This document shows, one piece after another, positions 9,221 to 24,098 of a stretch of DNA of 34,805 nucleotides. The DNA is from a virus (Duplodnaviria > Caudoviricetes): the IMG/VR virus record IMGVR_UViG_3300033814_000023, positions 1 to 34,805 of that record; one strand, written 5' to 3'. Within the stretch, counting starts at the first letter, position 1, and every line of letters starts with the position of its first letter. Under the pieces are notes generated by a model. That model was not told where the DNA came from. It ran no database searches and worked only from the letters and a program-made list of their open reading frames with translations. The position numbers and the translations under genes are program-made.

Positions 9221-9685
9221 CTACGCTATGAGAACATCCGGCGCATCCGCCGTATGGATAAGCTCCGCAAACCACCGCATCTGCACCGACCCGTAGGGCT
9301 GGTCCCCGCCTTCGTAGGCTAGGACCGCGCCCTGATAATCGAGCTTGACTATTTTACCCCCTACCGTCGCGCCGGACCCGAGGATGACCTCGACCTCGCG
9401 CGAGATCGCGTCGAGCGTCGCGTCAAGCGTCGCCTCGGAAGCCGTGGCGTAGGCCGTCACGCGCAGGTCAACGGTTCGCTCCATCGTCTCCGGGTCATCA
9501 GGGTCCGCGTCCGGGCTCGCGCGCGAGGCATCATCGCCCGGCGTTGCGACCGCAACCAACGGCAGGTCCGCCGGATCTATAGGCCACACGCGGAAAGGGA
9601 ACACCTCGCCGGCAGAGGGCGGAAGCGCAGCGGTAAGCGCGGCGGTCACTGCATCCCTCAACTGAGTGCGAAGATGGTTAGCCAT
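9221..9685 (-). CDS. tail terminator / tail completion protein (gpU-like)
   Basis: 154 aa just upstream of the tail tube, with the pattern H.RTQLRDAV..AL, V.P.R..P....LP and LD.I..EVE. Confidence 0.7.
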   Translation of the reverse strand: MANHLRTQLRDAVTAALTAALPPSAGEVFPFRVWPIDPADLPLVAVATPGDDASRASPDADPDDPETMERTVDLRVTAYATASEATLDATLDAISREVEVILGSGATVGGKIVKLDYQGAVLAYEGGDQPYGSVQMRWFAELIHTADAPDVLIA

Positions 9686-10382
9686 GTGCGCCCCCCCTTA
9701 TCCGCTCTGCAACCGCCCGCCGCTCATCAGACAGCGCCGTATAACGCTCTTGGTCCCGGTCGCTCGCCCGCCGGCCCTTCGGCCCCACACGTTTCGCGGA
9801 ATAGGTCAGGTCGCGGGGCGCTTTGCCGTTGTTCGGGTGCATGTGCTCCACTAGCACGTCGCGCAGCCAGATCAAGCGGTTGGCCCGCATCGCGATGTCC
9901 GCGATGTGCGTGTCTGCGTAGAAGTGCTCATACGTGGGATGGACCAAATGCCCCACGCAATCGAACCAGGCGCGGGTGACAAAGAAGTGGGTGCAACGCA
10001 GCCCTTTCCGCGCCTCCGCCCCGTCCATTGGCACCGCAACCGCAGCACACCCATCCCCGAGCGCCCGTTCCACCGCGAGGTCCCAGGCCGGGGTGCGGAA
10101 TAGCACATCGTCAGCGCACGCCATAAGCACGTCTCCAGAGGCCCGGGCCGCGAGGTCGTTGAACATCCCCATGACCGAGCCGCTCTCTCCGCAAACGAAA
10201 GTCGCGCCTTGCAGAGTCCCCGATAGCGTCTCATAGTCGGAAAGTCTCGGATCATCTCGATCCACGCGCGCGAGAACGGTGACTCGCTCGGGATGGGACG
10301 CCGTGCGAAACGCGCTCTCCACCATCGCCTCGAAGCGAGCGGGCCGTTCGCGGGTGGCGCAGAGGATTGAGATCATCATCAT
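9678..10382 (-). CDS. GT2-family glycosyltransferase
   Basis: ISIL.ATR.RP, N.LA..A.GD....ADD (DxD-like), YADT and VEH.HP. The start is placed at ATG 10382 (ATGA overlap). Confidence 0.8.
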   Translation of the reverse strand: MMMISILCATRERPARFEAMVESAFRTASHPERVTVLARVDRDDPRLSDYETLSGTLQGATFVCGESGSVMGMFNDLAARASGDVLMACADDVLFRTPAWDLAVERALGDGCAAVAVPMDGAEARKGLRCTHFFVTRAWFDCVGHLVHPTYEHFYADTHIADIAMRANRLIWLRDVLVEHMHPNNGKAPRDLTYSAKRVGPKGRRASDRDQERYTALSDERRAVAERIRGGAHG

Positions 10383-11311
10383 GACGCGGCCTTTATACTG
10401 GCAACGTCCGCCTCCGCGCGGTAGTGATCGAGCAGCCATGAGAGGCTTTCATGGAGCGGAATCTGCGGATGCCATCCCGTAGCAGCGCGGAAGCGGGAGC
10501 AATCCGGCACCTGCGACCGCACATCGAGCGGGCGCATCAGCGCCGGATCAACGCGCGTGCGGACCGGGACGCGCGCCATCTCGATCATCATCTCAAGACC
10601 CGCCTGCACCGTCATAGGCTCCTCCGACCCGATATTATAAATCGGCACTTGATGCTTTGATCGTTCTGGCGGGAAGCTTCCCGCGAGCGCGTAAGCAATC
10701 ACGATGTCTCGCACGTCCGCAAAGGTGCGAACCGAACCGAGGTTTCCGTGGATCAATTCCTTGCGTTGCCCGCGCTCGATCTCTACGATCTGTCGTGCAA
10801 AAGCGGATAACGCGATGTCGCGCCGTCGCGGGTTGATATAACCAAAGGCACGCGTGATGATGACCGGGATACCGTAGCACCTCGCGTACATCTGCGCCAG
10901 CAAGTCCTGCCCCGCCTTCGAGCAGGCGTAGGGATTGGTGTGCCGCGAGATTGGGAATAACTCCGTGATCGGCGAACCGTCCGGGTCGCCATAGACCTCG
11001 GAGGAGGAGCACATGACGACGCGCGGCGGGGGGTCGAATAGCCGGAGTGCTTCAAAGAGGTTGATCGTCCCCCCCGTGTTGTTCCCATACATCCGCGCCG
11101 GCTCGTCAAAGGAACGCCGAACATCCGCCTTCGATGCAAGATGGTAGATGACCTCTGGACGGACCTCCTCCAAGCGACGGCGCACGGCGGCGAAGTCATT
11201 CAAGTCGCATTCCAACCGCGCGATGCCGTGGACCTCATCCCCGATGCTCTCCAGGTATTCCGCGAGGTAACTACCCGCAGCGCCCCGGATGCCTGTGATC
11301 AGAGCCCTCAT
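10379..11311 (-). CDS. gmd: GDP-mannose 4,6-dehydratase-like extended SDR (Gmd/Rmd family)
   Basis: ALITG.RG..GSYLAE.L, SSSEVYG, PY..SK and GNL...R.F.DVRD. Confidence 0.75.
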   Translation of the reverse strand: MRALITGIRGAAGSYLAEYLESIGDEVHGIARLECDLNDFAAVRRRLEEVRPEVIYHLASKADVRRSFDEPARMYGNNTGGTINLFEALRLFDPPPRVVMCSSSEVYGDPDGSPITELFPISRHTNPYACSKAGQDLLAQMYARCYGIPVIITRAFGYINPRRRDIALSAFARQIVEIERGQRKELIHGNLGSVRTFADVRDIVIAYALAGSFPPERSKHQVPIYNIGSEEPMTVQAGLEMMIEMARVPVRTRVDPALMRPLDVRSQVPDCSRFRAATGWHPQIPLHESLSWLLDHYRAEADVASIKAAS

Positions 11312-12276
11312 GCCGCCCCCAGGATGGGATTCGCCAACCCTATCCGGTCGAAAATCCTGCCCCAGAACGCGCCAAGCCCGTGCTCCCGGAGCAGGCGGAC
11401 ACGCAGGCGAGCCCCCATAGCCTCCGTCTCCTCTGGACGGCCCCGGAGGCGCTCGACGATGGTGATCGCCTCCTCGATACTCCCATACTCTAGGAACTCA
11501 ACTTCCGGCTCGAACCAGGTCCGGGTCGGTGAATCGCGCGGTTCGATCAGGGTCGCGCCGGCAAGCCCAGTCTCGACCACCCGGCCTTTGACGTGCGTAT
11601 GCCGGCGCGACCCCGTGTGGGCGAAGTTCGGGACCATGCGGCAGCGCCCAAGGAACTCAGCGACTTCGCGGTAATTCTCTGGCCCACCAGAGCGTAGTCT
11701 GATCTGAAGCCCATGCTGCTGGAGTTGCTCGACGAGGACGAGACGCGGATCAACGTCCGGGTTGTGCCGGCGCTTCCGCCTGGCCCCAATCTGTCCTGCG
11801 AACCCGAGAACGATCGGTCGTTCGGCGTGGGGAGCGGGCACGGCGGCGTAGAAGTTCGGGTCGATCGGGGTAAGCGCGGAGAGCCCGGTATCGCGCAGCG
11901 GCCAGTCCCGGACGCCGTCGAGCGCAACCTGGAGCGAGAACGCCCCGGCGCGCTCGTAGTCTACGAGCAGCGGCCACCACGGGTCATCGGCGGCGTCGGA
12001 ACAGAAGTGGACCGTGGGCGCGATCTCCTCCCGCAGGCGCTTGAACAACTCCGCCGAGGGCGTGTTCCCGCCACACGCCCCGACGTAGACGATGAAGTCC
12101 GGACGGAAACGGACCGCCGCCTCGCGGATCTCGGAGTCGAGCGCCGCGCCAATGATACCCTGGCCGACCCGATGGTTGTAGACGTAGTACCCGACCTCAG
12201 CGCCCGGGAGGCAGGCGAAGGACTGGTAGTGCTTGTGCGTCTCGCTCGTCGGCGTGATCAGAAAAAAACCTCTCAC
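11308..12276 (-). CDS. CgeB-like GT-B glycosyltransferase, paralog 3
   Basis: C-terminal GFAG, L..CR...NF, KGRV.E..LAG and F.P..E..EY pattern. Paralogous to the two neighbouring genes. Confidence 0.75.
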   Translation of the reverse strand: MRGFFLITPTSETHKHYQSFACLPGAEVGYYVYNHRVGQGIIGAALDSEIREAAVRFRPDFIVYVGACGGNTPSAELFKRLREEIAPTVHFCSDAADDPWWPLLVDYERAGAFSLQVALDGVRDWPLRDTGLSALTPIDPNFYAAVPAPHAERPIVLGFAGQIGARRKRRHNPDVDPRLVLVEQLQQHGLQIRLRSGGPENYREVAEFLGRCRMVPNFAHTGSRRHTHVKGRVVETGLAGATLIEPRDSPTRTWFEPEVEFLEYGSIEEAITIVERLRGRPEETEAMGARLRVRLLREHGLGAFWGRIFDRIGLANPILGAA

Positions 12277-12925
12277 ACGGTCTCCTTGATTTGAATCCGT
12301 TCCATTACGCGACGCCAGAATGCGGCGGGCGAATGATCGGCACGCACCTTCTCTCGCAGGCGACCCGCGATCGCCTCGGTCACCACCGGCCGATTATGGA
12401 TCGCGGCGAGGATCGAAGCGGCCTCCTCCATCGAGCCGTATTCAAGGTAATCAACCCCAGGCGTGAACCAGTGGGAGGTCGGTGCCCCGCGTTCCTCCAA
12501 TAGCATCGCTCCCGCGAGGGCGGCTTCGATCACGCGGCCCTTCACCTGCATGTGACGCAGCGATCCGGTGCGAGCGAAGTTCAGCACGATGCGGCATCGA
12601 CCCAGATAGTCAACATACTCCGCGTAACTGTTCCGCGCTCCGTCACGCTCCCGGTATTGGAGTCCGAAAGTAGCAGCACGCTCTAATAACGCGGCGCGCA
12701 CGACTCCTATGTTGCCCGCAAACCCGAACCCGATGGGGCGCTCGGCGTGCCGTGGGAAATCGCGCGCGAACCACTTAGGGTCCAAGGTTGTGAGCGCCGT
12801 GATCTGCGTCTCCGCGAGTGGCCACGCCGGGTTTCCATCAAGCGCCACCTGCACGGAAAACGCGCCTATTCGGTCATACTCCATTAGGAGCGGCCACCAC
12901 GGGTCATCGGCGGCGTCGGAACAGA
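11969..12925. repeat. 37-bp perfect direct repeat (11969-12005 and 12889-12925) shared by two GT paralogs
   Basis: AGCGGCCACCACGGGTCATCGGCGGCGTCGGAACAGA occurs twice, 920 bp apart, and encodes CSDAADDPWWPL in both genes. Confidence 0.85.
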
Positions 12926-13202
12926 GATGCACGGTAGGAGCGATGCGGTCCCGGAGTTTGCGGAGAATACCAGGCTCTGGGAGATTGTCACCGCAAGCTC
13001 CGATGTAGATGATGACATCGGGCATGTAGGACAGCGCGGCGGAAAACATCCGGTCATCACGCGGCCGGCCATTCTCATAAGAGTCCGCCCGCTTCGTGTT
13101 GAAGTAGACGTGGCGTTGAACTTCGTTACCCGGAAGGGACAGGAACGACTCATAGTGCTTATCCGTCTCGTTCGTCGGTGGAGTGATGAAAAAGGCTTTC
13201 AC
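12273..13202 (-). CDS. CgeB-like GT-B glycosyltransferase, paralog 2
   Basis: GFAGN, Y..YL.RCRIVLNF, KGRVIEAALAG and F.PG.DYLEY. Confidence 0.75.
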   Translation of the reverse strand: MKAFFITPPTNETDKHYESFLSLPGNEVQRHVYFNTKRADSYENGRPRDDRMFSAALSYMPDVIIYIGACGDNLPEPGILRKLRDRIAPTVHLCSDAADDPWWPLLMEYDRIGAFSVQVALDGNPAWPLAETQITALTTLDPKWFARDFPRHAERPIGFGFAGNIGVVRAALLERAATFGLQYRERDGARNSYAEYVDYLGRCRIVLNFARTGSLRHMQVKGRVIEAALAGAMLLEERGAPTSHWFTPGVDYLEYGSMEEAASILAAIHNRPVVTEAIAGRLREKVRADHSPAAFWRRVMERIQIKETV

Positions 13203-14107
13203 CGGCCACCCATCGCTCGCGTAACCACATCACCAAATAGCTTTTGCGGGTTGTAATGCTGCCGCGTGTGCGCTTCCCTCATCCATGCGCTTTGCTCTAT
13301 CACCTCATCTGAAAGCGTGCGGATCAGATGCTCCGCCTCCGCAGCGTCCCGATAGATGAAATACGAACCTTCGGGAAACCAGTCCGCGATCGGGGAGCCT
13401 TCGCTCTCAAGCAACGCGCATCCCGCGAATCCGCTCTCGATCACGCGCTGCTTCAGATGATGCGTCACGCCGGAGCCGGTAAATGAGGTATTGATTATGA
13501 TTCGACACTGGCGCATAAATGCGACGTGCTCGGGATAACTCACCGCCCCGTCTGCCACATTTCTTTCTCGTAACGTGACCAATCCGGAGGCGACCAGTGG
13601 TGCCAGGATGCGGCCACGCGGATCGACCGGAACGGAATGCGATGGGCCAGTCAGACCGAGATTCCCGGAAAAGCCGCAGCGGATGTCCCGCCGTGACGCA
13701 GGCGCGTCAAAGAGTAACGGGCTTACGGGGGCGAGCATCACCCAGTCTACGGGCGCATCCTTGCGGCCGTCTATCGTCACTTGCAGGTCGAAACATCCGG
13801 CCCGCGCATAATCTTTCAAGATGTCGTGCCAGCCATCGTCCCCACCGTCGAAGCAGATGTTCACGGATGGCGCTATCGACCGCAGACGCTTCAACGCACC
13901 AAGGGACGGCGATCCTTCAAGATTGTTCGATCCAATGTAAAAGATGATCTGTGGCGTCAAGGCTTGCGTCTCGCGCAGCACACGGTCATCATTCACCCGT
14001 TTCATGTGATTGAACGTCACGCGCCCAGACGGCTCATTGAAGTAATCCCAAGCCCCCGTCACGCTGTCTACATCATTCGTCCGCGTGGTGATGAATACCG
14101 CCTTCAC
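13199..14107 (-). CDS. CgeB-like GT-B glycosyltransferase, paralog 1
   Basis: GTG at 14107 with an AAGGAGG RBS and a GTGA overlap. GFSGN, CRIIIN and KQRVIE.G.AGC.LLE. Confidence 0.72.
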   Translation of the reverse strand: MKAVFITTRTNDVDSVTGAWDYFNEPSGRVTFNHMKRVNDDRVLRETQALTPQIIFYIGSNNLEGSPSLGALKRLRSIAPSVNICFDGGDDGWHDILKDYARAGCFDLQVTIDGRKDAPVDWVMLAPVSPLLFDAPASRRDIRCGFSGNLGLTGPSHSVPVDPRGRILAPLVASGLVTLRERNVADGAVSYPEHVAFMRQCRIIINTSFTGSGVTHHLKQRVIESGFAGCALLESEGSPIADWFPEGSYFIYRDAAEAEHLIRTLSDEVIEQSAWMREAHTRQHYNPQKLFGDVVTRAMGGR

Positions 14108-17100
14108 GCAACCTCCTTGATGTCGCAACCGAACCACTCAACCCGCGTCATGATCGTCCCGGACTTCCGGCCCCACATCAATGTCTCAACGGCGAACCGC
14201 GAGCGGTCCGGAAACCGCCGCGCGTGAACCGTCATCGTCTGACAATCCAAGATAAGCGGTATGGGAGTCGAGGTCAGGAGCCGATCGAAATACTCCGGGA
14301 CATTCCGCTCGAAGCGGTGGATCCTCATCGGTTCGTCCTCCGCCGTCGGGATTCGGAGGCGCTGATAGTAGATGACCTCGACGAGTTCCTCGTCCTCAAA
14401 TTGGATCCCGCGCGAGTAGAGAACGTCGCGGACGAGTTCAGTCAGTTCGAGGTAGAAGGCGTCGAGATCCTCGGCGATCCGGAGGAAGCTCGCCTCCTCC
14501 TCGTCCCAGTAGATCGGGGCGTATCCCTCGACGCGGCGACCCCGCCCACGTCCCGCGAGGATCCGCTCGATTTGCCCGTCGAACTCAGCGATCTCCCGGC
14601 GGAACGTTCTGTGATCTCGCCCGTTCCTCATGACATACTCTATCAAGTCGGTTACTGTCACGCCGTGGCGATCCGCGAGCCAGAGCATGACGAAGAACCC
14701 GACCTTGAGCGAATGAAGGACCATCGTCAGCCAGGAGAAAAGGACCATATCGCGCCACATCGTAAGTGGCATCGCGTCCGTGGTCACGATCACGTCCTCG
14801 AACTCCGTTACGAGATCATCAGTCCGAAGCGCGCCGTGGATCTCGTTTAACTCGATTTGCTTCGTCACGATCCCGAATCGTTTCTGGTATTCCGGATTCG
14901 CCATCTCAGTGTTTGGAAAGATTTGGCAGAGGTAGATGAAAAGCTGGTTCTTCAACCCGGCGGACAGCATCTCCTCTACGCCCGTCTTCCACGTCTCGAA
15001 CGTCTCGCCGGGCAACCCAAGGATCAGTTCGGAATAAACCGGGACATGCGCCTCATTGAACTTGATCTGCAATGACTTGTAGGTTTCGAGCTTGATGTTC
15101 TGGCGTTGGATGTTCTTCAGGACATCCTTATTATTGCTCTGCAACGCCAATGTGATCCCCTTCTCCAAGTCCGCCGCGTGCAACTTCGTCGCGATCCCGT
15201 AGATGCGTTCGTCCGCGTTCTTCCCGAAGCAGGTCCGGAACTTCTCTGGAAATCCGTATTCGCGCTTCACGTCAACGAGTATCTGTGCGATCTCCTCGTC
15301 ACGCTTGTGCATTCCGAAATTGGAATCTGCGTTGAACAGGTACTTGATCTTGTTTCTGGCCGCCCATTCGATTTCTTTGGCGACTCTTTCTATTCCGTGA
15401 AAGCGATATTTTCGGGAGAGTCCGCCTTGTCCCCAGTAGCAGTTATGGGCCAGCAGTCCGTTAGCGAAAAAGTTGTGATGCGGAGCAGCGTTTATAAGGT
15501 CGTAGACCCTCGCCTCACCAGCGGAGGTGATGCTAGTTACCCTGCTCCAGCGAACTCCCGGAGCCTTTCGGCCAGCGCGGAATTGAGTGCATCCGAATCC
15601 CAAATCGTGAAGCAGGCCCAGCCCTTGCCAGCGTAGTCCATTAGTTCTCGTTCCACCTTCTCTGCGTCCTGGTGCCAATATTTGCCGTGCGCCAAGATCA
15701 CGCGCGGGCGAGACGTATGCACGAAGTCCGGGTTGCGGGAAGTACCGGACAGGCATGGTCCCACCCACAGAGAGCCGTCCCCGACGAATCGGAATGGCAA
15801 ATTGTTCTCCAGAAGAAACGCCAGCACACGAGACTCGAAACCGTTTGGGTGTTTCTCCTCGAACAGCTTTATAGCCGCCTCGTATCGCATCCTCGTCTGC
15901 GGATCGTTGAGCGCGACGCGCGCCTTCTCGCGCGCCGCCGCACTCCTCATCGGATTGTTCGCCGTCATGTAAACAGAAATCTTGGCCGAATGTCGCAAGC
16001 GCCGAGTCTCGCCCATGCGCCTCGCCACCTCCGGGTCCTTCATGGGATTGTTCGGCCCGGATTGCTTGGCTCTCGCCGTTTCGCTCATGATCTTTCGACC
16101 GCGAGGCGTGCTCATAAACGGGACGTGCTTCCCACTGGCGTAACTCTGCTTGAGAGTTTCCGCCTGCCGCGCCCTCACTTCCGGACGCTTCATCGGGTTG
16201 TCCGCCTTCATGCGCTTGGAGATTTCTCGTCTCCAAGATTTCGTCCCCGATTTTGATTTCTTCGGCACGTCGCCACCCGCCTCGCGTGTAAATCCTGTGA
16301 TCTGCTGTCGCGTCTAGATACGTCTCGCCGGCGTGAATCCGAACCACCGTCCGCACACCCGTAAAAACGGAACGCTCGACCGCGTTCCAGACCGGAATCT
16401 GTGCCCTCTCATCAAAACCAAGAACCGAATCCCCGGACCGAACATCCTGTATCACCTTATGACCTAATTTTGTGATTATAACAGTGTTCTCTGACAAGCA
16501 GAACGAGCACGGAAATGGGCAGCCGCGATTGGTTTCTACGATAGCTTGGAGTTGAAGTCCCGTCCGCCGCGAGTCGTCCATGATCTCGTCATATAGCCCT
16601 TCGAGATATGGCGAGGGATACATATCGAGGTCTTTCGGTTGATGCGCCTCGACCTCGTTGCGGATGCACGCCCCATCGTCAGCGCGCCATGCGACGTTAG
16701 CGAGCCCAGAGAAATCGCGTGATTCAAGATTACGCAGCAGAATTTTAGCGAACGCTTCCTCACCCTCGGCGCGCACCGCGACATCTATGAAGGGATGGCG
16801 AGCGAAGTATTCCTGCGGGTGCTGTGGCACTTGCGGCCCGCCGAACACGATGAGGCAACGCGGCCAGCGTAGTTTCACTTCCTCCGCCACACGCAGATTC
16901 AACTGCTCGTTCCACATCGACACGGAAAACGCCGCCACGTCCGGCGCGTCGTAACGCGGGAGGATGTTGCTCATGGAATCGATGTGGTAGAAGAACGGCG
17001 CGAATTCATATGCCGCATTGATCTGCGGCACCGTCTCGGCGTAGGCGCGGAGCAATCCGGTTGCGATCGGGAGGTAGGCCGACTGCTCCATGCGGATATT

Positions 17101-17127
17101 GTATTCATTCAAAAAGACCCTACGCAC
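14104..17127 (-). CDS. cobalamin-binding radical SAM enzyme, intein-containing precursor
   Basis: N-terminal B12-binding-like segment (FSVSMWN...IVFGGP...D.AVR.EGE). ETNRGCPFPCSF|intein|CYWG gives CxxxCxxC after splicing. DSNFG and ELILGLPGET follow. The likely start is GTG 17127 (GAGGAG RBS); the ORF track starts at 17154. Confidence 0.88.
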   Translation of the reverse strand: MRRVFLNEYNIRMEQSAYLPIATGLLRAYAETVPQINAAYEFAPFFYHIDSMSNILPRYDAPDVAAFSVSMWNEQLNLRVAEEVKLRWPRCLIVFGGPQVPQHPQEYFARHPFIDVAVRAEGEEAFAKILLRNLESRDFSGLANVAWRADDGACIRNEVEAHQPKDLDMYPSPYLEGLYDEIMDDSRRTGLQLQAIVETNRGCPFPCSFCLSENTVIITKLGHKVIQDVRSGDSVLGFDERAQIPVWNAVERSVFTGVRTVVRIHAGETYLDATADHRIYTRGGWRRAEEIKIGDEILETRNLQAHEGGQPDEASGSEGAAGGNSQAELRQWEARPVYEHASRSKDHERNGESQAIRAEQSHEGPGGGEAHGRDSALATFGQDFCLHDGEQSDEECGGAREGARRAQRSADEDAIRGGYKAVRGETPKRFRVSCAGVSSGEQFAIPIRRGRLSVGGTMPVRYFPQPGLRAYVSPARDLGARQILAPGRREGGTRTNGLRWQGLGLLHDLGFGCTQFRAGRKAPGVRWSRVTSITSAGEARVYDLINAAPHHNFFANGLLAHNCYWGQGGLSRKYRFHGIERVAKEIEWAARNKIKYLFNADSNFGMHKRDEEIAQILVDVKREYGFPEKFRTCFGKNADERIYGIATKLHAADLEKGITLALQSNNKDVLKNIQRQNIKLETYKSLQIKFNEAHVPVYSELILGLPGETFETWKTGVEEMLSAGLKNQLFIYLCQIFPNTEMANPEYQKRFGIVTKQIELNEIHGALRTDDLVTEFEDVIVTTDAMPLTMWRDMVLFSWLTMVLHSLKVGFFVMLWLADRHGVTVTDLIEYVMRNGRDHRTFRREIAEFDGQIERILAGRGRGRRVEGYAPIYWDEEEASFLRIAEDLDAFYLELTELVRDVLYSRGIQFEDEELVEVIYYQRLRIPTAEDEPMRIHRFERNVPEYFDRLLTSTPIPLILDCQTMTVHARRFPDRSRFAVETLMWGRKSGTIMTRVEWFGCDIKEVA
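15442..16500 (-). mobile_element. intein (353 aa), Cys1...His-Asn / Cys+1
   Basis: Block A CLSENTVI, block B LDATADHRIYT (TxxH), block F VYDL and block G HNFFANGLLAHN followed by C. Confidence 0.93.
15537..16268 (-). CDS. putative homing endonuclease (NUMOD3-like repeats plus a Vsr/EDxHD-like nuclease) nested in the +1 frame of the intein
   Basis: 243 aa with its own GTG start and TAA stop. Three NPM(K/R) basic repeats, then FE..V, NPDF, HGKYWH and GW....IWD, matching Vsr PDF..HGCFWH..GW...IWE. Confidence 0.82.
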   Translation of the reverse strand: MPKKSKSGTKSWRREISKRMKADNPMKRPEVRARQAETLKQSYASGKHVPFMSTPRGRKIMSETARAKQSGPNNPMKDPEVARRMGETRRLRHSAKISVYMTANNPMRSAAAREKARVALNDPQTRMRYEAAIKLFEEKHPNGFESRVLAFLLENNLPFRFVGDGSLWVGPCLSGTSRNPDFVHTSRPRVILAHGKYWHQDAEKVERELMDYAGKGWACFTIWDSDALNSALAERLREFAGAG

Positions 17128-17659
17128 CGCTCGGCTCCTCATGGTAGAGGTCACCGTATTCTACTAGCAACGTGGATCCGGCGCGGCCGAGCGCCCGCGC
17201 GTATGCGGGGCCGACCGTCTCCGGGGTCGCGAGCGTCTCGACGACGACGGTCGAGAGCATCGAGCGAAACGCCTCGGTGAAATCCCCGACGTGCTGCGCC
17301 TGTGGGTGAATCGGTCGCGTCGGCCCGACCGCGACCCGCACGATGACCTGCGGTCGCCATAACGAGATCGTCGGGAATTTGTCGAGGTGGTTGACGAGCT
17401 GGTTCGCGGCGAGGAGGAGGAAGTTCCACCGAGGGTAGACGCAGACCGGAACGAAGCCACGGAGCGAGGCGCCGATCGCCATCCCGAGCTGGAACTCCTC
17501 CGCGACGGGAAGCTCGACGAGACGATCGGAGGAGATTCCCGCGAAGGTCGCGGTCATGAACGTCCCGGCGCTCGCGACCGCCTGGCCCATGAAGACGACG
17601 CGCGGGTCCCGGGCGAGCGCGAGCATCGCGTGATTTAGAGCGGAGCGGTAGGTCTCCAT
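17120..17659 (-). CDS. TPP-dependent E1-beta / transketolase pyrimidine-binding-domain protein (short form)
   Basis: D.RV.FMGQ.V, ELPVAEE.QLGMAIG.SL.G..P, NQLVNHLDK and QH.GDF. The start is placed at ATG 17659. Confidence 0.8.
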   Translation of the reverse strand: METYRSALNHAMLALARDPRVVFMGQAVASAGTFMTATFAGISSDRLVELPVAEEFQLGMAIGASLRGFVPVCVYPRWNFLLLAANQLVNHLDKFPTISLWRPQVIVRVAVGPTRPIHPQAQHVGDFTEAFRSMLSTVVVETLATPETVGPAYARALGRAGSTLLVEYGDLYHEEPSGA

Positions 17660-17660
17660 G

Positions 17661-18278
17661 CTAGAACTCGATCCGTTTCCCTGTTCCCGCATGCGGATAG
17701 CGGGAAACGTAGCGATACCGCCTGACGTTCCGCGAGGAGAGGAGCGAGGGAGCGGGGCCGCCCCACGCTGCGTCGGTCGGAGTGCAGACTGAGATGCCGT
17801 TATCCTCGATGACGAAGACGATGGGAAGACGATGATTCCGCGCGTAAGCCGCGCTCTCGTGGGCGATCCCGGTCGCGGCGGTCATGTCGCCAAGGAAACA
17901 CCAAACGCGCTCGCCGGACCCGGCGCGCTTCGCGGCCCAGGCGATCCCGACCGCGATCGGGAGGACGCCGCCGACCATTGCGGAGGAGACGACGCGATGC
18001 TCCGGGAAGTTCAGCGCGATCGAGCGACCGGCCATGATCTCGGCCATGAGTTCAGGGGGCGGGACGCCCTTCAGGAGGCAGTGGTAGTGGGAGCGCCAGC
18101 TTGAGAGGACCCAGTCCTCGTCGCGGACCTCGCGCCGGAAGATCTCTATGAGCGCCTCCTCGTTCCCGTCGTGAAGATGAATCGGCGCGCAGATCCTCCC
18201 CGCGTTGAAGACCCTCGCCACCTCGGTCTCGAACGCGACGAGATCAACCGCAGAGAGGCGTTCCGCAGCAGCCGTCAT
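17661..18278 (-). CDS. TPP-dependent E1-alpha-like subunit (short form)
   Basis: PIHL..GNE, D.V.S.WRSH.H.L.KG, S..VGG..PIAVG.A and a TPP motif GD...EDN. ATG at 18278 (ATGA overlap). Confidence 0.82.
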   Translation of the reverse strand: MTAAAERLSAVDLVAFETEVARVFNAGRICAPIHLHDGNEEALIEIFRREVRDEDWVLSSWRSHYHCLLKGVPPPELMAEIMAGRSIALNFPEHRVVSSAMVGGVLPIAVGIAWAAKRAGSGERVWCFLGDMTAATGIAHESAAYARNHRLPIVFVIEDNGISVCTPTDAAWGGPAPSLLSSRNVRRYRYVSRYPHAGTGKRIEF

Positions 18279-19696
18279 CTCGCGTCCCCGAGGATCTCGC
18301 GCCGAAGACCGAGCCGGGCCTGCCGCTCGATCGAGGCTCGCGTTCCGAACCTCCGGTCGATCTCCGCGAGGTAGTCCGGGTTTGTGAAATAAGTCATCCA
18401 CGCCTCGTCGCGGAAGCGAAGCACCTCGGCGGCGGAGAGCGAGGCGGTCGGGAGGGGGAGACAGTCGTAGGCGAGGAAGCCGTAGCCGGACCAGGTCGAC
18501 GGGAGGGGCGTCCCGCGCTCGCGCGCGCGCCGGTAAAGGGGAGAGCCGGGAAGCGCCATGCAAGGGTAGAAGTTCGCGTGCTCCGTCCGAAGCTCAAGAG
18601 CGAGGTCGAGGGTCTCGCGCATCGACGCGGCGTCGTCATCGGGAAGCCCGAGGATGAAGTTCGCGACGACGTTTATCCCCGCCGCGCGGATCTGGGAGAC
18701 GATCGAGCGGACGTCTGCGTCCTCGAAGTTCCCCTTCGACGCCTCGCGCCGGACGCTTTGGTTGCCGGCCTCGATCCCGAGCGCGAGCCAGTTGATACCC
18801 GCGCGCTTGAAATCGTCGAGGTGCTCCGCCCGAACCGTGTCGACGCGGGCGTAGGCCCAGAGGTTAAGGCCGAGATCGCGCTCGATCAGGCCACGGACGA
18901 TCGCCCCGTAGTGTCGTCGGTTCAAAAAGAACATCTCGTCTGAGATCCGGACATTCCGGACTCCGCGAGAGGCGAGATACTCCATCTCGTCGAGGACGAC
19001 CTCGGAGTCGAAGAAGCGCATCCCGCTCGACTCCGAGGCATCGAGTTGGCTGGCCGAGGATCGGTTGACGAGATTTATCATGCAGAAGTCGCAGCGGAAG
19101 GAGCAGCCCAGCGAGGTATAGATCGCCGCCGTGCGGTCCGTCCTCGATGGGTCGAAGTAGCCGTGCCAGAAATGGGCGCGATATACGGTGAAGTCCGGGA
19201 CGAGGTCCCACGCGTGGCCGCGAAGATCGCGCGTCGGTTCGCCCCAGAGAACGCCGGGCGGCGCGCCGTCGCGCAGGAGCGCACGCAGCGCGGCGATGCC
19301 GTCCCCCGGCAAGACGTGATCCACGTAGGAGAGCGCGGCGGTCTCCTCCGGGGCTGCGGAGGGATGCGACCCGATGAACGCGATCGAGACCCCGCTCCGC
19401 TCCCGGATCTTCCGCGCGAGGCGCTCCGCGCCCGCCATGTTCGTCGTCCCCGAATTCGGGTTCCCACCATAAACGACGAAGCAGACGTAACGCGGGCGCG
19501 CATAGAGGACCCGTTCGACGGCGGCCTCGTCGTCGAGCCGCTCCGCGCGCGGGTCGAGGATCGCAATATCGAATTCGCGGCGAAGCGCGGCGGCGATGAG
19601 GAAAGACCAAGTCGGGGTCTCGATCGCCGCGTAGTCATCCGCGAGCCCCTGGTACGATTCCGCAGAGGAATCGGGATTCACAAGGAGAAGGTCCAT
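18275..19696 (-). CDS. cobalamin-binding radical SAM enzyme (class B methyltransferase-like)
   Basis: GSHPSA, SLGCSFRCDFC (CxxxCxxC), DEMF, YARVDT, GIEAG, FILGLP and LPGSPLY. Confidence 0.88.
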   Translation of the reverse strand: MDLLLVNPDSSAESYQGLADDYAAIETPTWSFLIAAALRREFDIAILDPRAERLDDEAAVERVLYARPRYVCFVVYGGNPNSGTTNMAGAERLARKIRERSGVSIAFIGSHPSAAPEETAALSYVDHVLPGDGIAALRALLRDGAPPGVLWGEPTRDLRGHAWDLVPDFTVYRAHFWHGYFDPSRTDRTAAIYTSLGCSFRCDFCMINLVNRSSASQLDASESSGMRFFDSEVVLDEMEYLASRGVRNVRISDEMFFLNRRHYGAIVRGLIERDLGLNLWAYARVDTVRAEHLDDFKRAGINWLALGIEAGNQSVRREASKGNFEDADVRSIVSQIRAAGINVVANFILGLPDDDAASMRETLDLALELRTEHANFYPCMALPGSPLYRRARERGTPLPSTWSGYGFLAYDCLPLPTASLSAAEVLRFRDEAWMTYFTNPDYLAEIDRRFGTRASIERQARLGLRREILGDAR

Positions 19697-20691
19697 CAGA
19701 GTCCGTTAGGATGATAGAGGACGACGCGGCTCCCGCCGCTCTCGAAGCGGAACGGGACCTGGGCGAGCGACCCGAGCGTCCTGCGGACCGCCTCGCGCTC
19801 GCCGGGACGGACGAAGAGAAGGAGGAACCCGCCGCCGCCAGCGCCAAGGAGCTTCCCGCCGATCGCGCCCGCCGCCCGCGCCGCGTCATAAAGGCCGTCT
19901 ATCTCCGGCGTCGAGATGCGGTCGGAGATCCGCCGCTTCAACGCCCAGCCATCGGCGAGCAGTTCGCCAAACTCCTCAATCGGGCGTGCCTCGTCCTGGA
20001 GCATCTTGATCGCGGAGTCAACCATCGCGCGGAGCGCCCGGAGTTCATCGCCACGCTTCGCGAGGTTCTCGATCGTGGAAAGAGCGACCTCGGAGGCGAT
20101 GCGCGAGAACCCGGTGAAGCAGAGCATGAGATGCTCCTCCAGTTCGACGAGGCGGCGGGATCCGAGGACGACGGGAGCGACCTCGAAGCTCCCGTCCCTC
20201 GCGAAGTCGATGCGGTTCAGACCGCCGAAGGCAGCCGAGATCTGGTCCTGCGAGCCGACGTTCTCCCCGATCACGTTCTGCTCGATGTCGATCGCCCGCC
20301 GCGCGAGGTCCCCCTTCGAGATGTAGCGACCGCGCAACGCGGCGACCGCGTTGATCAGGCCGACCGTGAAGGACGAACTCGATCCGAGTCCGGATCGCGC
20401 CGGGAGGTCCCCGTCGTGGTGGATCTCAAGACCCTCGCGACAGTCGTTGACCCCGAGAACCGCTCGGATGGCGGGATGCTGGATCTCCTCGATCTCTCGC
20501 ACGTTCTCGATCTTCGAGTAGACGATCCGATAGCGATGCTCGAAGAACGGCGGGAGATGACGGAGGCTGATGTAGCAGTAGCGATCAATGGTCCCCGCGA
20601 CGACCGCTCCGCCGTGCTCGCGATACCACGCCGGGTAGTCCGTCCCGCCCCCGAAGAACGAGACCCTGAACGGCGTGCGCGTGATGATCAT
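19696..20691 (-). CDS. hddA: GHMP sugar kinase, HddA-like (heptose 7-phosphate kinase family)
   Basis: MIITRTPFRVSFFGGGTDYP, LPARSGLGSSS, GSQDQ and GGKLLGAGGGGF. ATG at 20691 (ATGA overlap). Confidence 0.85.
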   Translation of the reverse strand: MIITRTPFRVSFFGGGTDYPAWYREHGGAVVAGTIDRYCYISLRHLPPFFEHRYRIVYSKIENVREIEEIQHPAIRAVLGVNDCREGLEIHHDGDLPARSGLGSSSSFTVGLINAVAALRGRYISKGDLARRAIDIEQNVIGENVGSQDQISAAFGGLNRIDFARDGSFEVAPVVLGSRRLVELEEHLMLCFTGFSRIASEVALSTIENLAKRGDELRALRAMVDSAIKMLQDEARPIEEFGELLADGWALKRRISDRISTPEIDGLYDAARAAGAIGGKLLGAGGGGFLLLFVRPGEREAVRRTLGSLAQVPFRFESGGSRVVLYHPNGL

Positions 20692-21626
20692 ACGTTCCCG
20701 TAGCGCGAGTTCGAGAGCATCGCGCAACCTTTCGCGAGTTCGAGGATTCCTTCCCGAAGCGAGACCATCGTCCGATAGCCCGTCGCCTCGATCTTCGCGT
20801 TCGATACTACATAATCCCTCTGGTCCGGGTCCTTCCCGACAGCTGCCTCGACGAACGTGAAAGCCGGGATCTCCTTGCGGATCGCGGCGCAAAGCTCGCG
20901 CTTCGAGAGGTTCGCCTCGGAAAGCCCGACGTTGTAGATCTGGCCCACCATCCGCTCCCGATTCTCGATCCCGTGGAGGAAGGCGCGCGCGACGTCTCGA
21001 ACGTGTATGTAATTCCGGCGGAACCCGGCCTCGAAGAGCACCACCGCCCGATCAACGACGGCGCGGTGGACGAAGTCGTTCACGAGCAGGTCGAGTCTCA
21101 TGCGCGGAGACATCCCGAAGACGGTCGCGAGCCGGAAGGAGATCGACGCCGGACGGTCCATGAGCGCGTGCTCGACCTCGACTTTCTCGCGAGCGTAGAG
21201 CGAGATCGGTCGGAGCGGGGACGCCTCGGTACATTCGTGGTTCTCGTCTCCGCTCCCATACGCGCTGTTCGTCGTCGGCATAACGACGAGCTGGTCCCTC
21301 CCGAGCCCATCGAGCATCATCAGGATCGCGTCGCGGTTCGTTGTCCTCGCCCCGACCGGATCGCGGTCGCAGAGCGGGGCGCCGACCAAGGCGGCGAGCG
21401 GGATAACGATGTCCGCCTGACGAAGAAGTGGCGCGACGACGCTCGCGACGCGCACGTCGCCGCATACGATGTCAAAACGCGGGTTGTGGCAGAGCGCAGC
21501 AAGCGAGTTCTGCCGATAGCGGAAATGATCCAGGACGACTACGCGATGGCCAGCATCGAGCAACGCTGGAACAAGGATCGAGCCGAGGTAGCCAGCGCCG
21601 CCGGTGACGAGGATGCGCTCGCTCAT
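20688..21626 (-). CDS. NAD-dependent nucleotide-sugar epimerase / reductase (extended SDR)
   Basis: ILVTGGAGYLG, Y...K, RLATVFG.SPRMRLDLLVNDF and R.YIHV.DV. Confidence 0.85.
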   Translation of the reverse strand: MSERILVTGGAGYLGSILVPALLDAGHRVVVLDHFRYRQNSLAALCHNPRFDIVCGDVRVASVVAPLLRQADIVIPLAALVGAPLCDRDPVGARTTNRDAILMMLDGLGRDQLVVMPTTNSAYGSGDENHECTEASPLRPISLYAREKVEVEHALMDRPASISFRLATVFGMSPRMRLDLLVNDFVHRAVVDRAVVLFEAGFRRNYIHVRDVARAFLHGIENRERMVGQIYNVGLSEANLSKRELCAAIRKEIPAFTFVEAAVGKDPDQRDYVVSNAKIEATGYRTMVSLREGILELAKGCAMLSNSRYGNV

Positions 21627-22249
21627 GTGCGCCCCATCAGTAATGCGTGCGCCTTGTTGTATCCCGCGGCGGTCCCAATATCGACGAATGACCCGGCGCT
21701 GGTGAAGGAAAGAACCCGCCGCCCACGATCGACCGCCGCCTCAAGGAATCTCTCCAGAGAAAAGGGCGTCGAAGAACTGGCCGCGAACGTTCGCCCCTCA
21801 TCAAGGAGCCCCCGCTCGAAGAGGTAGACTCCGGCATTCACCAGCCCACCAGCGGCGACCACGGAGGCATCGGCACCACCAGCGCGATGCGCCTCCAGGA
21901 GTTCCGCGAGGGAGACTTGGAGATAGGTATCACCGTTGAGAACGAGCACCGGACCGCGCCCCACAAGAAAACCGGCTGCGTGAAGCAGCCCTCCACCGGA
22001 ACCAAGCGGCACGCTCTCGAAGGCGTAGGAGAGTGGAATGCCGCTGCGAGATGAGCCGAGTCCAGTCATAATCGCTTCGCTCCGATAACCAACGGAGAGG
22101 ATGAATCGCGATACACCCTCTTCTATCCAGCGGTCGAGGAGTATCTCTATGAATGGCCGGCCAGCGATCGGTGCCATCGGCTTCGGGACATCCGGGACGA
22201 ACGGCCGGAGCCGAGTTCCGAGACCTCCCGCGAGAACGATCGCCTCCAT
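21623..22249 (-). CDS. sugar-1-phosphate nucleotidyltransferase, HddC-like
   Basis: AIVLAGGLGTRL...PKPMA.I.GRPF, E..PLG.GG, NGDTY, NAGVY and F.DIG. Confidence 0.85.
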   Translation of the reverse strand: MEAIVLAGGLGTRLRPFVPDVPKPMAPIAGRPFIEILLDRWIEEGVSRFILSVGYRSEAIMTGLGSSRSGIPLSYAFESVPLGSGGGLLHAAGFLVGRGPVLVLNGDTYLQVSLAELLEAHRAGGADASVVAAGGLVNAGVYLFERGLLDEGRTFAASSSTPFSLERFLEAAVDRGRRVLSFTSAGSFVDIGTAAGYNKAHALLMGRT

Positions 22250-22251
22250 CG

Positions 22252-23427
22252 TCAGTGGACCACGCGGTCGAGGACCTCGCGGAGCCGCTCTAGCTGTGGC
22301 CTCAGGTCCCGGGGATGGTTCCCGACGAAGAACCCCCGGTCGTGGACGAGGTTCGCATTCGTCATTTCACCAACCGCCTCGAAATCGAAGTGCCGGATCA
22401 CGTCGTGGCGCAAGAAATTCCCACCCGTTATGATCCTGTGCTCGATCTCCGCCTCGCGGAGCGCCGCGAGGACCTCCCGCCGATCGACGCCGAGCTTCGG
22501 GTTGAGGATGATCGTGAAGCAAAACCACGAACTCCGACCGTTCTCGCGCTGGGTTATGAACCTCTCGTCCCCAGAGAAGAGCGCCCGAAAGATCCGCGCA
22601 TTCGCGCGACGGGCTTCGACGAAGTCGTCAAGTTTCCGGAGTTGCTCCCGCCCGACCGCTCCGGAGAGTTCCAGGGGGCGGACGTTATACCCCGGGAGGA
22701 TGAATCGATACGCCTCGAAAAAATCCTCGCCGCCCGCCTCGTAGACCTTCGAGTCTCGCGGGAGGTCGCGGGTCCAACCGTGGGCACGCATAGACCGCGC
22801 GAGGTGATCGATCTCGACGTCGTCCGTGACGAGCACGCCGCCCTCCATAGTCGAGATGTGGTGCGAGAAAAATGTCGAGAACGTCCCGACGTCCCCGAAC
22901 GTGCCCGCGAACTTCCCGTCGATGCTCGCACCCATCGATTCGCAGTTGTCCTCGATGAGGTAGAGCGCGTGCTGGTCGCAGAACTCGCGGAGCGCGACGA
23001 GCGCGCAGGGGTTCCCGAGGATGCTCACGGCGACGACGGCTCGAGTACGCGAGGTCAGGGCGTACTTCAATCGCGACATATCCATATTGATCGTCTCCAA
23101 CTCTACGTCGACGAAGCGAAGCCGGAGCCCGTACTGCTGGAGCGGGTAATAAGTCGTAGCCCACGACACCGCGGGGACGATGACCTCGTCCCCGCGCGCG
23201 AGCGGCGCGATCGCCAGATGTGAGAGTGCGGCGACGGCTAGAAGATTCGCCGCCGACCCCGAGGAAACCATAAGCGCATGGCGGACACCGAATTTCTCCG
23301 CGAACTCCTCCTCGAAGAGCCGCACGTTCTCCCCCATCGTGAAGCGTCCGGAATCGACGACGCGTCGGATCGCGTCCAGTTCTTCCGCTCCCCAGGAACT
23401 CGTGGTCAGGTCGTAGCGAACGCTCAC
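22252..23427 (-). CDS. colD: PLP-dependent DegT/DnrJ-fold enzyme, ColD-like GDP-4-keto-6-deoxymannose 3-dehydratase
   Basis: SGS.ANLL, EDNCES.GA, STFFSHHISTMEGG (His in place of the Schiff-base Lys), RAHGWTR.LP and PGYNVRP. No Cys-rich Fe-S insert of the E1/RfbH type. GTG at 23427 (GTGA overlap) gives 391 aa. Confidence 0.78.
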   Translation of the reverse strand: MSVRYDLTTSSWGAEELDAIRRVVDSGRFTMGENVRLFEEEFAEKFGVRHALMVSSGSAANLLAVAALSHLAIAPLARGDEVIVPAVSWATTYYPLQQYGLRLRFVDVELETINMDMSRLKYALTSRTRAVVAVSILGNPCALVALREFCDQHALYLIEDNCESMGASIDGKFAGTFGDVGTFSTFFSHHISTMEGGVLVTDDVEIDHLARSMRAHGWTRDLPRDSKVYEAGGEDFFEAYRFILPGYNVRPLELSGAVGREQLRKLDDFVEARRANARIFRALFSGDERFITQRENGRSSWFCFTIILNPKLGVDRREVLAALREAEIEHRIITGGNFLRHDVIRHFDFEAVGEMTNANLVHDRGFFVGNHPRDLRPQLERLREVLDRVVH

Positions 23428-24098
23428 CGCCAGTGCTCCCGCATCCACGCGTGAGCGATCCCCCCGTTCGGCTTCGACTTCCCCTTGAAGCAGACGACGG
23501 AGCAACCGCTGGGGACGATGTCGTGGACCTGCTTCGCATAAAGCTGAATCATCCCGGGAACATCATCGGTCAGCCGCGCGATATTCCGGTCCCCGCCCAT
23601 AGCGTCAAAAATATATGCCTGATCTCCCCTCGCGGCGTTGAACGCGCGATGCCGCCCCGCTCCCGGTCCAGGATTCGCCGCATATTCCGCAATCAATCGC
23701 TCAGGGGGACCAGCGAGGAATTGTTCGTAGACATGGACCTGCGGACGACCGAACCACATGACGCCGGAGCCGACATAGTGACGTCGGCCAAAGCCGCGGA
23801 GCATCGCAAATGGATGGCGAAGTTCGGCAAGGCGGTCAAGGTTGCCAACGATCACGGTGTCGAGGTCAAGATATAGAGTTTTGTCCGTCACAACTCCGGG
23901 ACGAAATGCCTCAATTTTCGACCACCATCCCGGCCAGTCGTGAACGAGCGGTATGCGCTCACAGGGAACCTCAACGTCGGAGAGTGCCGCGAAGCGATGG
24001 GCGACGGAGAGATTCCGCGCGACGCCGTCTCGGAGCTTCCGGACCCAAGTCTCGTCGTAGGCTCCGCCTGAGCGTAGTACGCAAAGAACGGTTAGCAC
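23424..24098 (-). CDS. GT-A fold glycosyltransferase (GT8-like)
   Basis: CVL.SGG.Y, GWWSK...F, LY.DLD (DxD), S.VM.F, GDQ.YI and VVCF.G..KP. Confidence 0.78.
   Translation of the reverse strand: MLTVLCVLRSGGAYDETWVRKLRDGVARNLSVAHRFAALSDVEVPCERIPLVHDWPGWWSKIEAFRPGVVTDKTLYLDLDTVIVGNLDRLAELRHPFAMLRGFGRRHYVGSGVMWFGRPQVHVYEQFLAGPPERLIAEYAANPGPGAGRHRAFNAARGDQAYIFDAMGGDRNIARLTDDVPGMIQLYAKQVHDIVPSGCSVVCFKGKSKPNGGIAHAWMREHWR

What the first reader, a model, noticed from the sequence alone, without database searches (positions are those of the whole stretch)
15442..16500. Intein hiding a complete homing endonuclease gene in its +1 reading frame
Seen: the intein's in-frame middle (~230 aa, ETRNLQAHEGGQPDEASG…) has no recognisable domain. 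The +1 frame on the same strand (15537-16268) encodes a coherent 243-aa protein with three NPM(K/R) repeats and a Vsr-like PDF…HGxYWH…GW..IW nuclease. It starts just after block B and stops just before block F, and both frames are stop-free over ~730 nt. Established: intein endonucleases are normally in-frame LAGLIDADG or HNH domains; Vsr-like (EDxHD, I-Bth0305I-type) endonucleases are known as separate ORFs in introns and between split-intein halves. Inference: this is a dual-coded selfish element in which the nuclease is translated separately and the intein removes the junk peptide. It is one stop codon plus a restart away from a split-intein 'fractured gene', so it may be an evolutionary intermediate.
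Basis: partly seen in the sequence, partly recalled or inferred. Interest (0 to 1): 0.88.

Follow-up and report, generated by a model that had tools for sequence, protein, structure and literature searches.

The report
Intein hides out-of-frame homing nuclease
A self-splicing protein insert (intein) in a phage iron-sulfur enzyme gene carries, one base out of step on the same DNA, a complete gene for a predicted DNA-cutting enzyme that likely spreads the insert; the layout is real and shared by about a dozen relatives, but out-of-frame nucleases in inteins have been described before.

Summary
Confirmed. On the minus strand of a lambda-like phage contig, a B12-binding radical SAM gene carries a 353-aa intein at the third Cys of CxxxCxxC. 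Its +1 frame encodes a 243-aa Vsr-like (EDxHD) nuclease (best solved match I-Bth0305I). Both frames are open: 0 host-frame stops against 9.4 expected. Two assemblies show no indel. Ten distinct relatives fetched as DNA have the same complete +1 layout (nine radical SAM genes, one helicase). Conservation follows the nuclease frame in 45 of 45 pairs. Related inteins occur before all three iron-sulfur cysteines and at a fourth site; fractured, IntN-fused, part-deleted and mini forms also exist. The 16 closest host proteins lack the intein, as homing predicts. Expression, cleavage and splicing are untested. The layout is known: cyanobacterial DnaX (sense, LAGLIDADG) and actinophage inteins (antisense Vsr-like, out-of-frame EndoVII). 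This scan has noted it at least eight times on other DNA. New here: a sense-strand Vsr-like gene in a radical SAM host, at four sites. 'Intermediate to fractured genes' is not shown: one origin of the nested form is not rejected, and it looks long-lived. New variant of a known kind.

The parts
16501..17154 (-). N-extein of the B12-binding radical SAM protein, ending in the first two Cys of CxxxCxxC
   Evidence: Pfam B12-binding
15442..16500 (-). Contiguous intein, 353 aa, Cys1 ... His-Asn; +1 residue is the third cluster Cys
16234..16500 (-). N-terminal splicing domain (aa 1-89; block A, block B T65-x-x-H68, G-W76)
15550..16233 (-). Host-frame filler peptide (aa 90-317), the -1 shadow of the nuclease gene; stop-free, poorly conserved
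   Evidence: no family match
15442..15549 (-). C-terminal splicing domain (W318 to N353; blocks F, G)
15537..16268 (-). +1-frame ORF, 243 aa, predicted Vsr-like/EDxHD homing endonuclease (GTG to TAA; alternative ATG at 16211)
16273..16283 (-). Shine-Dalgarno-like stretch before the GTG, written in the intein's T-R-G-G-W codons (inferred ribosome site)
   Evidence: -8.4 kcal/mol, better than 27 of 27 control windows
15945..16199 (-). Three NPM(K/R) helical repeats (residues 24, 74, 105), likely DNA-binding region
   Evidence: PHROG homing endonuclease match at residues 24-97, E 2.9e-4
15549..15854 (-). Vsr-like catalytic domain (residues 139-240): E145, D181, H194, H199, E208
14104..15441 (-). 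C-extein, radical SAM domain, starting with the third cluster Cys

Best explanation
This is a contiguous intein in a phage radical SAM gene whose middle also encodes, in the +1 frame of the same strand, a predicted Vsr-like (EDxHD) homing endonuclease that is likely translated separately and would spread the intein into empty copies of the gene. Steps: (1, shown) ribosomes on the host gene can read through the intein, because the host frame is kept stop-free across the nuclease gene. (2, inferred from intact splicing motifs and a +1 Cys) the intein splices out with its 228-aa filler and rebuilds CxxxCxxC. (3, inferred) other ribosomes start internally, most likely at GTG 16268 behind a Shine-Dalgarno-like stretch, and make the free 243-aa nuclease. 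(4, inferred from I-Bth0305I) it binds through its N-terminal repeats and cuts the intein-less allele near the Cys codons; repair copies the element. Selection acts on the nuclease protein; the host frame only has to stay open and keep its splicing ends.
For: Open host frame beyond chance in 12 of 12 nested loci tested (0 stops, 8.0-18.4 expected, 0 of 3000 shuffles each; these were picked for being open), while 10 of 10 free-standing or fractured relatives carry the expected number. Nuclease-frame identity 0.43 against host-frame 0.22; codon positions 0.53/0.61/0.36; 45 of 45 pairs; 16 invariant columns against 3. Family profile matches 3r3p at E 2.2e-8 and Vsr at 2e-5; Foldseek ranks 3r3p and Vsr first. 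Same +1 offset in all 10 nested loci checked. P0152 and P0002 are compatible as two frames of one DNA over 192 codons; next best 14. The 16 closest exteins (67-81%) are intein-free, and starred branches force at least 5 gains or losses. P0153 keeps only the tail of the filler, as expected for decay by deletion.
Against: No expression, cleavage or splicing data. On its own the +1 protein scores weakly (Pfam Vsr E 0.043; 1vsr E 3.9; Foldseek E 0.016). The second acid of EDxHD is Glu208, not Asp, and the extra strand Glu noted by Dassa is Leu192. The ribosome-site signal beats controls at p<0.05 in only 2 of 10 testable loci, and in the window it is fixed by intein codons anyway. Patchy distribution could also be repeated loss, and the extein set came from one word-based search. 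Frame-specific identity is partly built in, because loci were found and aligned by the nuclease.
Confidence: 0.8

Rival explanations
1. Same element, but the nuclease is made by a +1 ribosomal frameshift in the N-terminal splicing domain, as an N-extein-IntN-nuclease fusion.
For: The +1 frame is open from 16313, 45 nt before the GTG. Natural hard-coded fusions of this type exist in the same group (P0018, P0071). Ribosome-site evidence is weak across loci.
Against: Each of 13 nested loci examined has a +1 start codon near the end of IntN, at differing positions. No notable RNA structure at the start region (z -1.0). No frameshift signal was searched for systematically.
Confidence: 0.1
2. The nuclease is an intact-looking but inactive passenger here; the intein no longer homes and is on its way to a mini-intein.
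For: Decayed relatives exist (P0153 deletion; P0157 and L016 mini-inteins; L021 with one indel). The window's protein lacks the N-terminal CxxC motifs that many relatives have.
Against: All five active-site positions match the family consensus; no stop in 243 codons; nearest host alleles are intein-free.
Confidence: 0.07
3. Assembly artefact: two compensating indels moved an in-frame nuclease out of frame.
For: In-frame Vsr-like inteins exist (L030, P0027, P0118). X1 and X2 may be the source data; no raw reads were available.
Against: No indel in X1, X2 or the X3/X5 pieces. Ten distinct relatives share the offset. An artefact would not empty the other frame of stops.
Confidence: 0.01

Closest known systems
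Cyanobacterial DnaX intein with out-of-frame homing endonuclease (Phillips, DeSimone, Gogarten, bioRxiv 10.64898/2026.09.14.751524; whole text read)
   Same: Contiguous intein; nuclease in a shifted sense-strand ORF over a disordered in-frame filler; Shine-Dalgarno motif upstream; selection on the nuclease frame; full, mini and empty alleles coexist.
   Different: LAGLIDADG nuclease in a cellular clamp-loader gene, one site. Here Vsr-like/EDxHD, phage radical SAM host, related inteins at four sites.
Non-canonical actinobacteriophage inteins (Gosselin, Arsenault, Gogarten, bioRxiv 10.1101/2025.01.02.630785; abstract and sections 8 and 15 read)
   Same: Contiguous inteins with a Vsr-like/EDxHD nuclease (3R3P match) as a second ORF; EndoVII nuclease in another sense frame; same evolutionary speculation.
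   Different: Their Vsr-like genes are antisense; hosts are DNA polymerase, minor capsid, terminase and thymidylate synthase. Here sense +1 and a radical SAM host.
Fractured genes (Dassa et al. 2009, PMC2677866; passages read)
   Same: Vsr-like nuclease gene between IntN and IntC on the same strand, with its 3' end overlapping IntC.
   Different: There the host frame is broken and the intein splices in trans. Here it is continuous.
EDxHD homing endonucleases, I-Bth0305I (Taylor et al. 2011, PMC3239194; passages and section 17 read)
   Same: N-terminal repeat region plus C-terminal Vsr-like catalytic domain; E/D/H positions and spacing; no Vsr zinc loop.
   Different: I-Bth0305I is in a group I intron, has NUMOD repeats, Asn208 and Asp222; here NPM(K/R) repeats, His194 and Glu208.
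ShiLan element (Arsenault et al. 2025, PMC11855218; abstract and section 4.3 read)
   Same: Out-of-frame homing nuclease with GTG start hidden in a stop-free in-frame insertion of a phage gene.
   Different: HNH nuclease and no splicing domain.
NCBIfam NF038136, intein-containing Rv2578c family radical SAM protein
   Same: Radical SAM host with an intein; weak match over residues 203-573 (E 1.6e-12).
   Different: 47 bits against cut-off 700: not a member; the host here is B12-binding.

Membership tests
Canonical (class 1) intein | Cys/Ser at position 1, block B TxxH, terminal His-Asn, +1 Cys/Ser/Thr | tested here: met
   C1, T65-A-D-H68, H352-N353, +1 Cys; Pfam above cut-off
Canonical (class 1) intein | In-frame insertion absent from close homologues | tested here: met
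   Spliced 663-aa product is 81% identical to intein-free P0162
Canonical (class 1) intein | Demonstrated protein splicing | not testable with these tools
   needs an assay
Intein with out-of-frame homing endonuclease | Intact nuclease ORF in another frame with host frame open | tested here: met
Intein with out-of-frame homing endonuclease | Selection on the nuclease frame | tested here: met
   Identity by frame and codon position, 45 pairs; no formal dN/dS, sequences too far apart
Intein with out-of-frame homing endonuclease | Own translation start | tested here: inconclusive
   Window p about 0.04; 2 of 10 testable loci under 0.05
EDxHD / Vsr-like homing endonuclease | Vsr-type catalytic fold | tested here: met
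   Profile to 3r3p E 2.2e-8; top four Foldseek rows are 3r3p and Vsr, E about 0.02, prob 0.99-1.00
EDxHD / Vsr-like homing endonuclease | E, D, x, H positions (I-Bth E170, D196, N208, H213) | tested here: met
   E145, D181, H194, H199, by alignment to Vsr and 3r3p
EDxHD / Vsr-like homing endonuclease | Final Asp (I-Bth D222, Vsr D97) | tested here: inconclusive
   Glu208 at the same spacing (9 after the His), invariant in 15 of 15 close relatives: acidic but not Asp
EDxHD / Vsr-like homing endonuclease | Cleaves the empty allele next to the insertion site | not testable with these tools
   needs an assay
Fractured gene (split intein) | Host frame ends after IntN and restarts at IntC | tested here: not met
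   One open frame 17154..14104
NF038136 Rv2578c family | Score above curated cut-off | tested here: not met
   47 against 700 bits

The most novel reading that the evidence does not exclude
One old lineage of dual-coded inteins has specialised on radical SAM genes and has hopped between all three iron-sulfur cysteines and a fourth Cys downstream. It builds its nuclease's ribosome site and stop codon from the intein's own conserved codons (T-x-x-G-W and W-x-x-V/I). It is a stable state from which fractured, IntN-fused and mini forms arise, so the family is a natural series for testing how inteins gain, split and lose a nuclease and change sites.
Probability: 0.3. Interest if true: 0.58.

Novelty: new variant of a known kind. 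Interest (0 to 1): 0.38.

Why it matters
Annotation misses these genes: the intein looks as if it holds a decayed nuclease while an intact one sits one base over, so counts of 'degenerate' inteins and of Vsr-like homing nucleases are likely off. About 240 codons held open in two frames give a clean model of overlapping-gene selection. The radical SAM lineage shows nested, fractured, fused, part-deleted and mini states at several Cys sites, which makes the Dassa and Gosselin models of intein-nuclease evolution testable. The principle itself is already published.

Tried and rejected
Single-sequence fold of the host-frame intein: uninformative, pLDDT 33 even in the splicing domain; not used. RNA evidence: no RNA holder listed. 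Run X6 laid nothing. Internal sigma-70 promoter: none found; two terminator-like sites at chance level. Hairpin over the nuclease start as in fractured genes: z -1.0. Repeated switching between nested and fractured forms: suggested by the first tree (bootstrap not settled) but a single nested clade was not rejected (p-AU 0.64), so dropped. Splicing-domain tree by insertion site: 1 of 13 inner branches starred, sites not clustered beyond shuffles (73 of 200), so no order of site changes is claimed. A nuclease remnant in the +1 frame of the L016 mini-intein: not convincing. Partner nucleases for P0153-P0156 among 151 proteins: none (runs of 10-29 codons); P0154-P0156 are counted as likely nested only from their filler signature. 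Genome collection gave 2 loci, neither with an intein. Antisense frames of the intein have 6-13 stops. Papers on inteins in radical SAM proteins: none relevant among 20 listed of 25. No earlier scan note on this sequence or genome.

Full report
Observation. The feature is on the minus strand. ORF 17154..14104 (1016 aa) has a B12-binding domain, a radical SAM domain and an intein. The intein is 16500..15442, 353 aa, from Cys to His-Asn, and its +1 residue is the third Cys of CxxxCxxC. The +1 frame holds GTG 16268 to TAA 15537, 243 aa; the third sense frame has 18 stops and the antisense frames 6-13. The nuclease ORF starts in intein codon R78, about 12 codons before the end of the N-terminal splicing domain, and its stop is formed by intein codon V321 plus the next base. 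Contigs from runs X1 and X2 span the region with no difference or gap, but either may be the source. Short pieces from X3 and X5 match exactly; one crosses the 5' junction, none the 3' junction. No raw reads were available.

Context. The contig is a lambda-like tailed phage: portal, Clp protease, head decoration protein, capsid E, tail tube, tape measure, tail fibre. The host gene lies in a sugar-nucleotide and glycosyltransferase cluster between head and tail genes. Its best NCBIfam match is the KedN5 B12 radical SAM methyltransferase family, far below cut-off (253 against 700); a methyltransferase role is an inference.

The +1 product. Alone it scores weakly (Pfam Vsr E 0.043; 1vsr E 3.9). 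It has 1982 relatives at E<=0.001 among cluster representatives. A profile of 51 of them matches I-Bth0305I (3r3p) at E 2.2e-8 and Vsr at 2e-5; 6 of 51 members match Pfam Vsr and 6 of 51 DUF559. The model is confident only in the C-terminal domain, and its top four Foldseek rows are 3r3p and Vsr, none under E 0.001. Taylor et al. (PMC3239194, section 17) give the site as E170, D196, N208, H213, D222 (Vsr E25, D51, H64, H69, D97). By alignment these are E145, D181, H194, H199 and E208 here. E145 and D181 are invariant in 51 of 51, E208 in 15 of 15 close relatives. The last position is Glu, not Asp.

Dual coding is selected. Shuffling synonymous codons within the nuclease gene gives 9.4 host-frame stops on average; 0 of 3000 shuffles give none. 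The same holds in 12 of 12 nested loci tested (8.0-18.4 expected), which were chosen for being open. Ten of 10 fractured or free-standing relatives have the expected number. Over the catalytic domain of 10 nested loci, identity is 0.43 in the nuclease frame and 0.22 in the host frame, higher in the nuclease frame in 45 of 45 pairs, and third codon positions of the nuclease frame vary most (0.36 against 0.53 and 0.61). The alignment was made on the nuclease, which favours this result.

Relatives. Of 63 loci fetched, 22 have intein domains beside the nuclease by my own small profiles. Twelve are complete nested +1 loci (10 distinct: L004 in a helicase; L005/L019, L006, L007, L008, L016, L017, L018, L020, L023/L025 in radical SAM genes). 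Three are partial nested loci (L022, L024, L026), one is nested with a single indel that shifts both frames (L021), five are fractured (L001-L003, one sequence; L027; L032, C half only) and one is in frame (L030). Forty had no adjacent intein hit; the 34 of them whose rows I saw have 10 or more stops in the -1 frame. I did not check these for introns. L063 was a weak hit with no nuclease match. From proteins alone, P0152 and P0002 fit as two frames of one DNA over 192 codons; P0154-P0156 carry the same filler signature; P0018 and P0071 are N-extein-IntN-nuclease fusions that end in a stop, and P0027 and P0118 are in-frame inteins. In 6 of 10 nested loci measured the nuclease stop falls at the homologous W-x-x-V/I strand.

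Sites and mobility. Related inteins sit before Cys1 (L007, L008, L020, P0156), Cys2 (L005, L018) and Cys3 (window, L016, L017, L023, P0152, P0154, P0155) of the motif, and at a Cys further downstream (L006, L021). The 16 exteins closest to the window's (67-81%) are intein-free; the closest intein-bearing ones are 66-67%. In a tree of 123 exteins the window's lies in a starred set with five empty alleles, and at least 5 gains or losses are forced. P0153 keeps only the tail of the filler (51% over 41 aa to P0155); P0157 and the first intein of L016 are mini-inteins. This fits homing followed by decay, though repeated loss is not excluded.

The 'intermediate' idea. In a tree of 54 catalytic domains (10 near-duplicate or short rows left out), the 18 rows from radical SAM inteins (15 nested, 2 fused, 1 fractured) form one side of a branch at 94/85, not starred, bootstrap unsettled. 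L001-L004 were not in it. On 32 rows a single nested clade is not rejected (p-AU 0.64). So the forms are close kin but direction and number of changes are open. Nested copies persist at 34-58% identity, which argues for a lasting state. In the window the nearest host-frame starts before IntC are a TTG at 15603 with a poor ribosome site and an ATG at 15756.

How it likely works. The host frame is read through and the intein splices out with its filler (inferred from motifs). The nuclease is most likely made by internal initiation at the GTG; its Shine-Dalgarno-like stretch beats 27 of 27 control windows, but only 2 of 10 testable loci reach p<0.05. Frameshifting to a fusion is the main alternative. 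Cleavage of the empty allele is inferred from I-Bth0305I.

Prior knowledge. Phillips et al. 2026 (whole text) describe a sense-strand out-of-frame LAGLIDADG gene in the cyanobacterial DnaX intein with frame-specific dN/dS, and credit Gorbalenya 1998, which I did not see. Gosselin et al. 2025 report antisense Vsr-like and out-of-frame EndoVII genes in contiguous phage inteins. Dassa et al. 2009 (passages) describe fractured genes; Arsenault et al. 2025 a hidden HNH gene. My four searches on the topic did not show a sense-strand Vsr-like gene nested in a contiguous intein, or a radical SAM host for this layout; the preprints' supplements were not seen. PMC3384342 and PMC3322345 were seen as passages and add nothing. 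This scan has noted the layout at least eight times in other genes, and related radical SAM inteins; those notes are unchecked and are not counted as support.

Verdict. Real, selected and widespread among close relatives; a new variant of a known kind. Interest 0.38.

Noticed in passing
window 9678-24098: A lambda-like phage carries about 14 kb of sugar-nucleotide, glycosyltransferase, aminotransferase, TPP-enzyme and two B12 radical SAM genes between its head-completion and tail genes; possibly a virion or DNA glycosylation pathway.
   Followed up: no
window 30685-33321 (-): 878-aa Ala/Thr/Asp-rich protein with many 'TLDAAI'-type repeats just upstream of the portal gene; no Pfam or PHROG match.
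   Followed up: no
L016 1741-3282: Two related inteins 7 residues apart in one CxxxCxxC motif: a mini-intein at Cys1 and a nested-nuclease intein at Cys3.
   Followed up: partly
L001 2117-5503: Fractured gene with a split intein and an NPMK-repeat Vsr-like nuclease between the halves, plus a second mini-intein 7 residues on, in a radical SAM-like Cys motif.
   Followed up: partly
L004 2181-4727: Phage helicase intein with a more distant DUF559-like nuclease in the same sense +1 layout.
   Followed up: partly
L021 about 1030-1068: One indel shifts both the host and nuclease frames; assembly error or a decaying copy.
   Followed up: no
L030 51-2159; proteins P0027, P0118: Vsr-like nucleases fused in frame inside contiguous inteins of a sugar dehydratase-like gene, a QueC-like gene and an amidotransferase/QueC-like gene (host names from motifs, by recall).
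   Followed up: partly
L024 3' end: The nuclease frame runs into an unrelated epimerase-like sequence; the contig looks chimeric.
   Followed up: no
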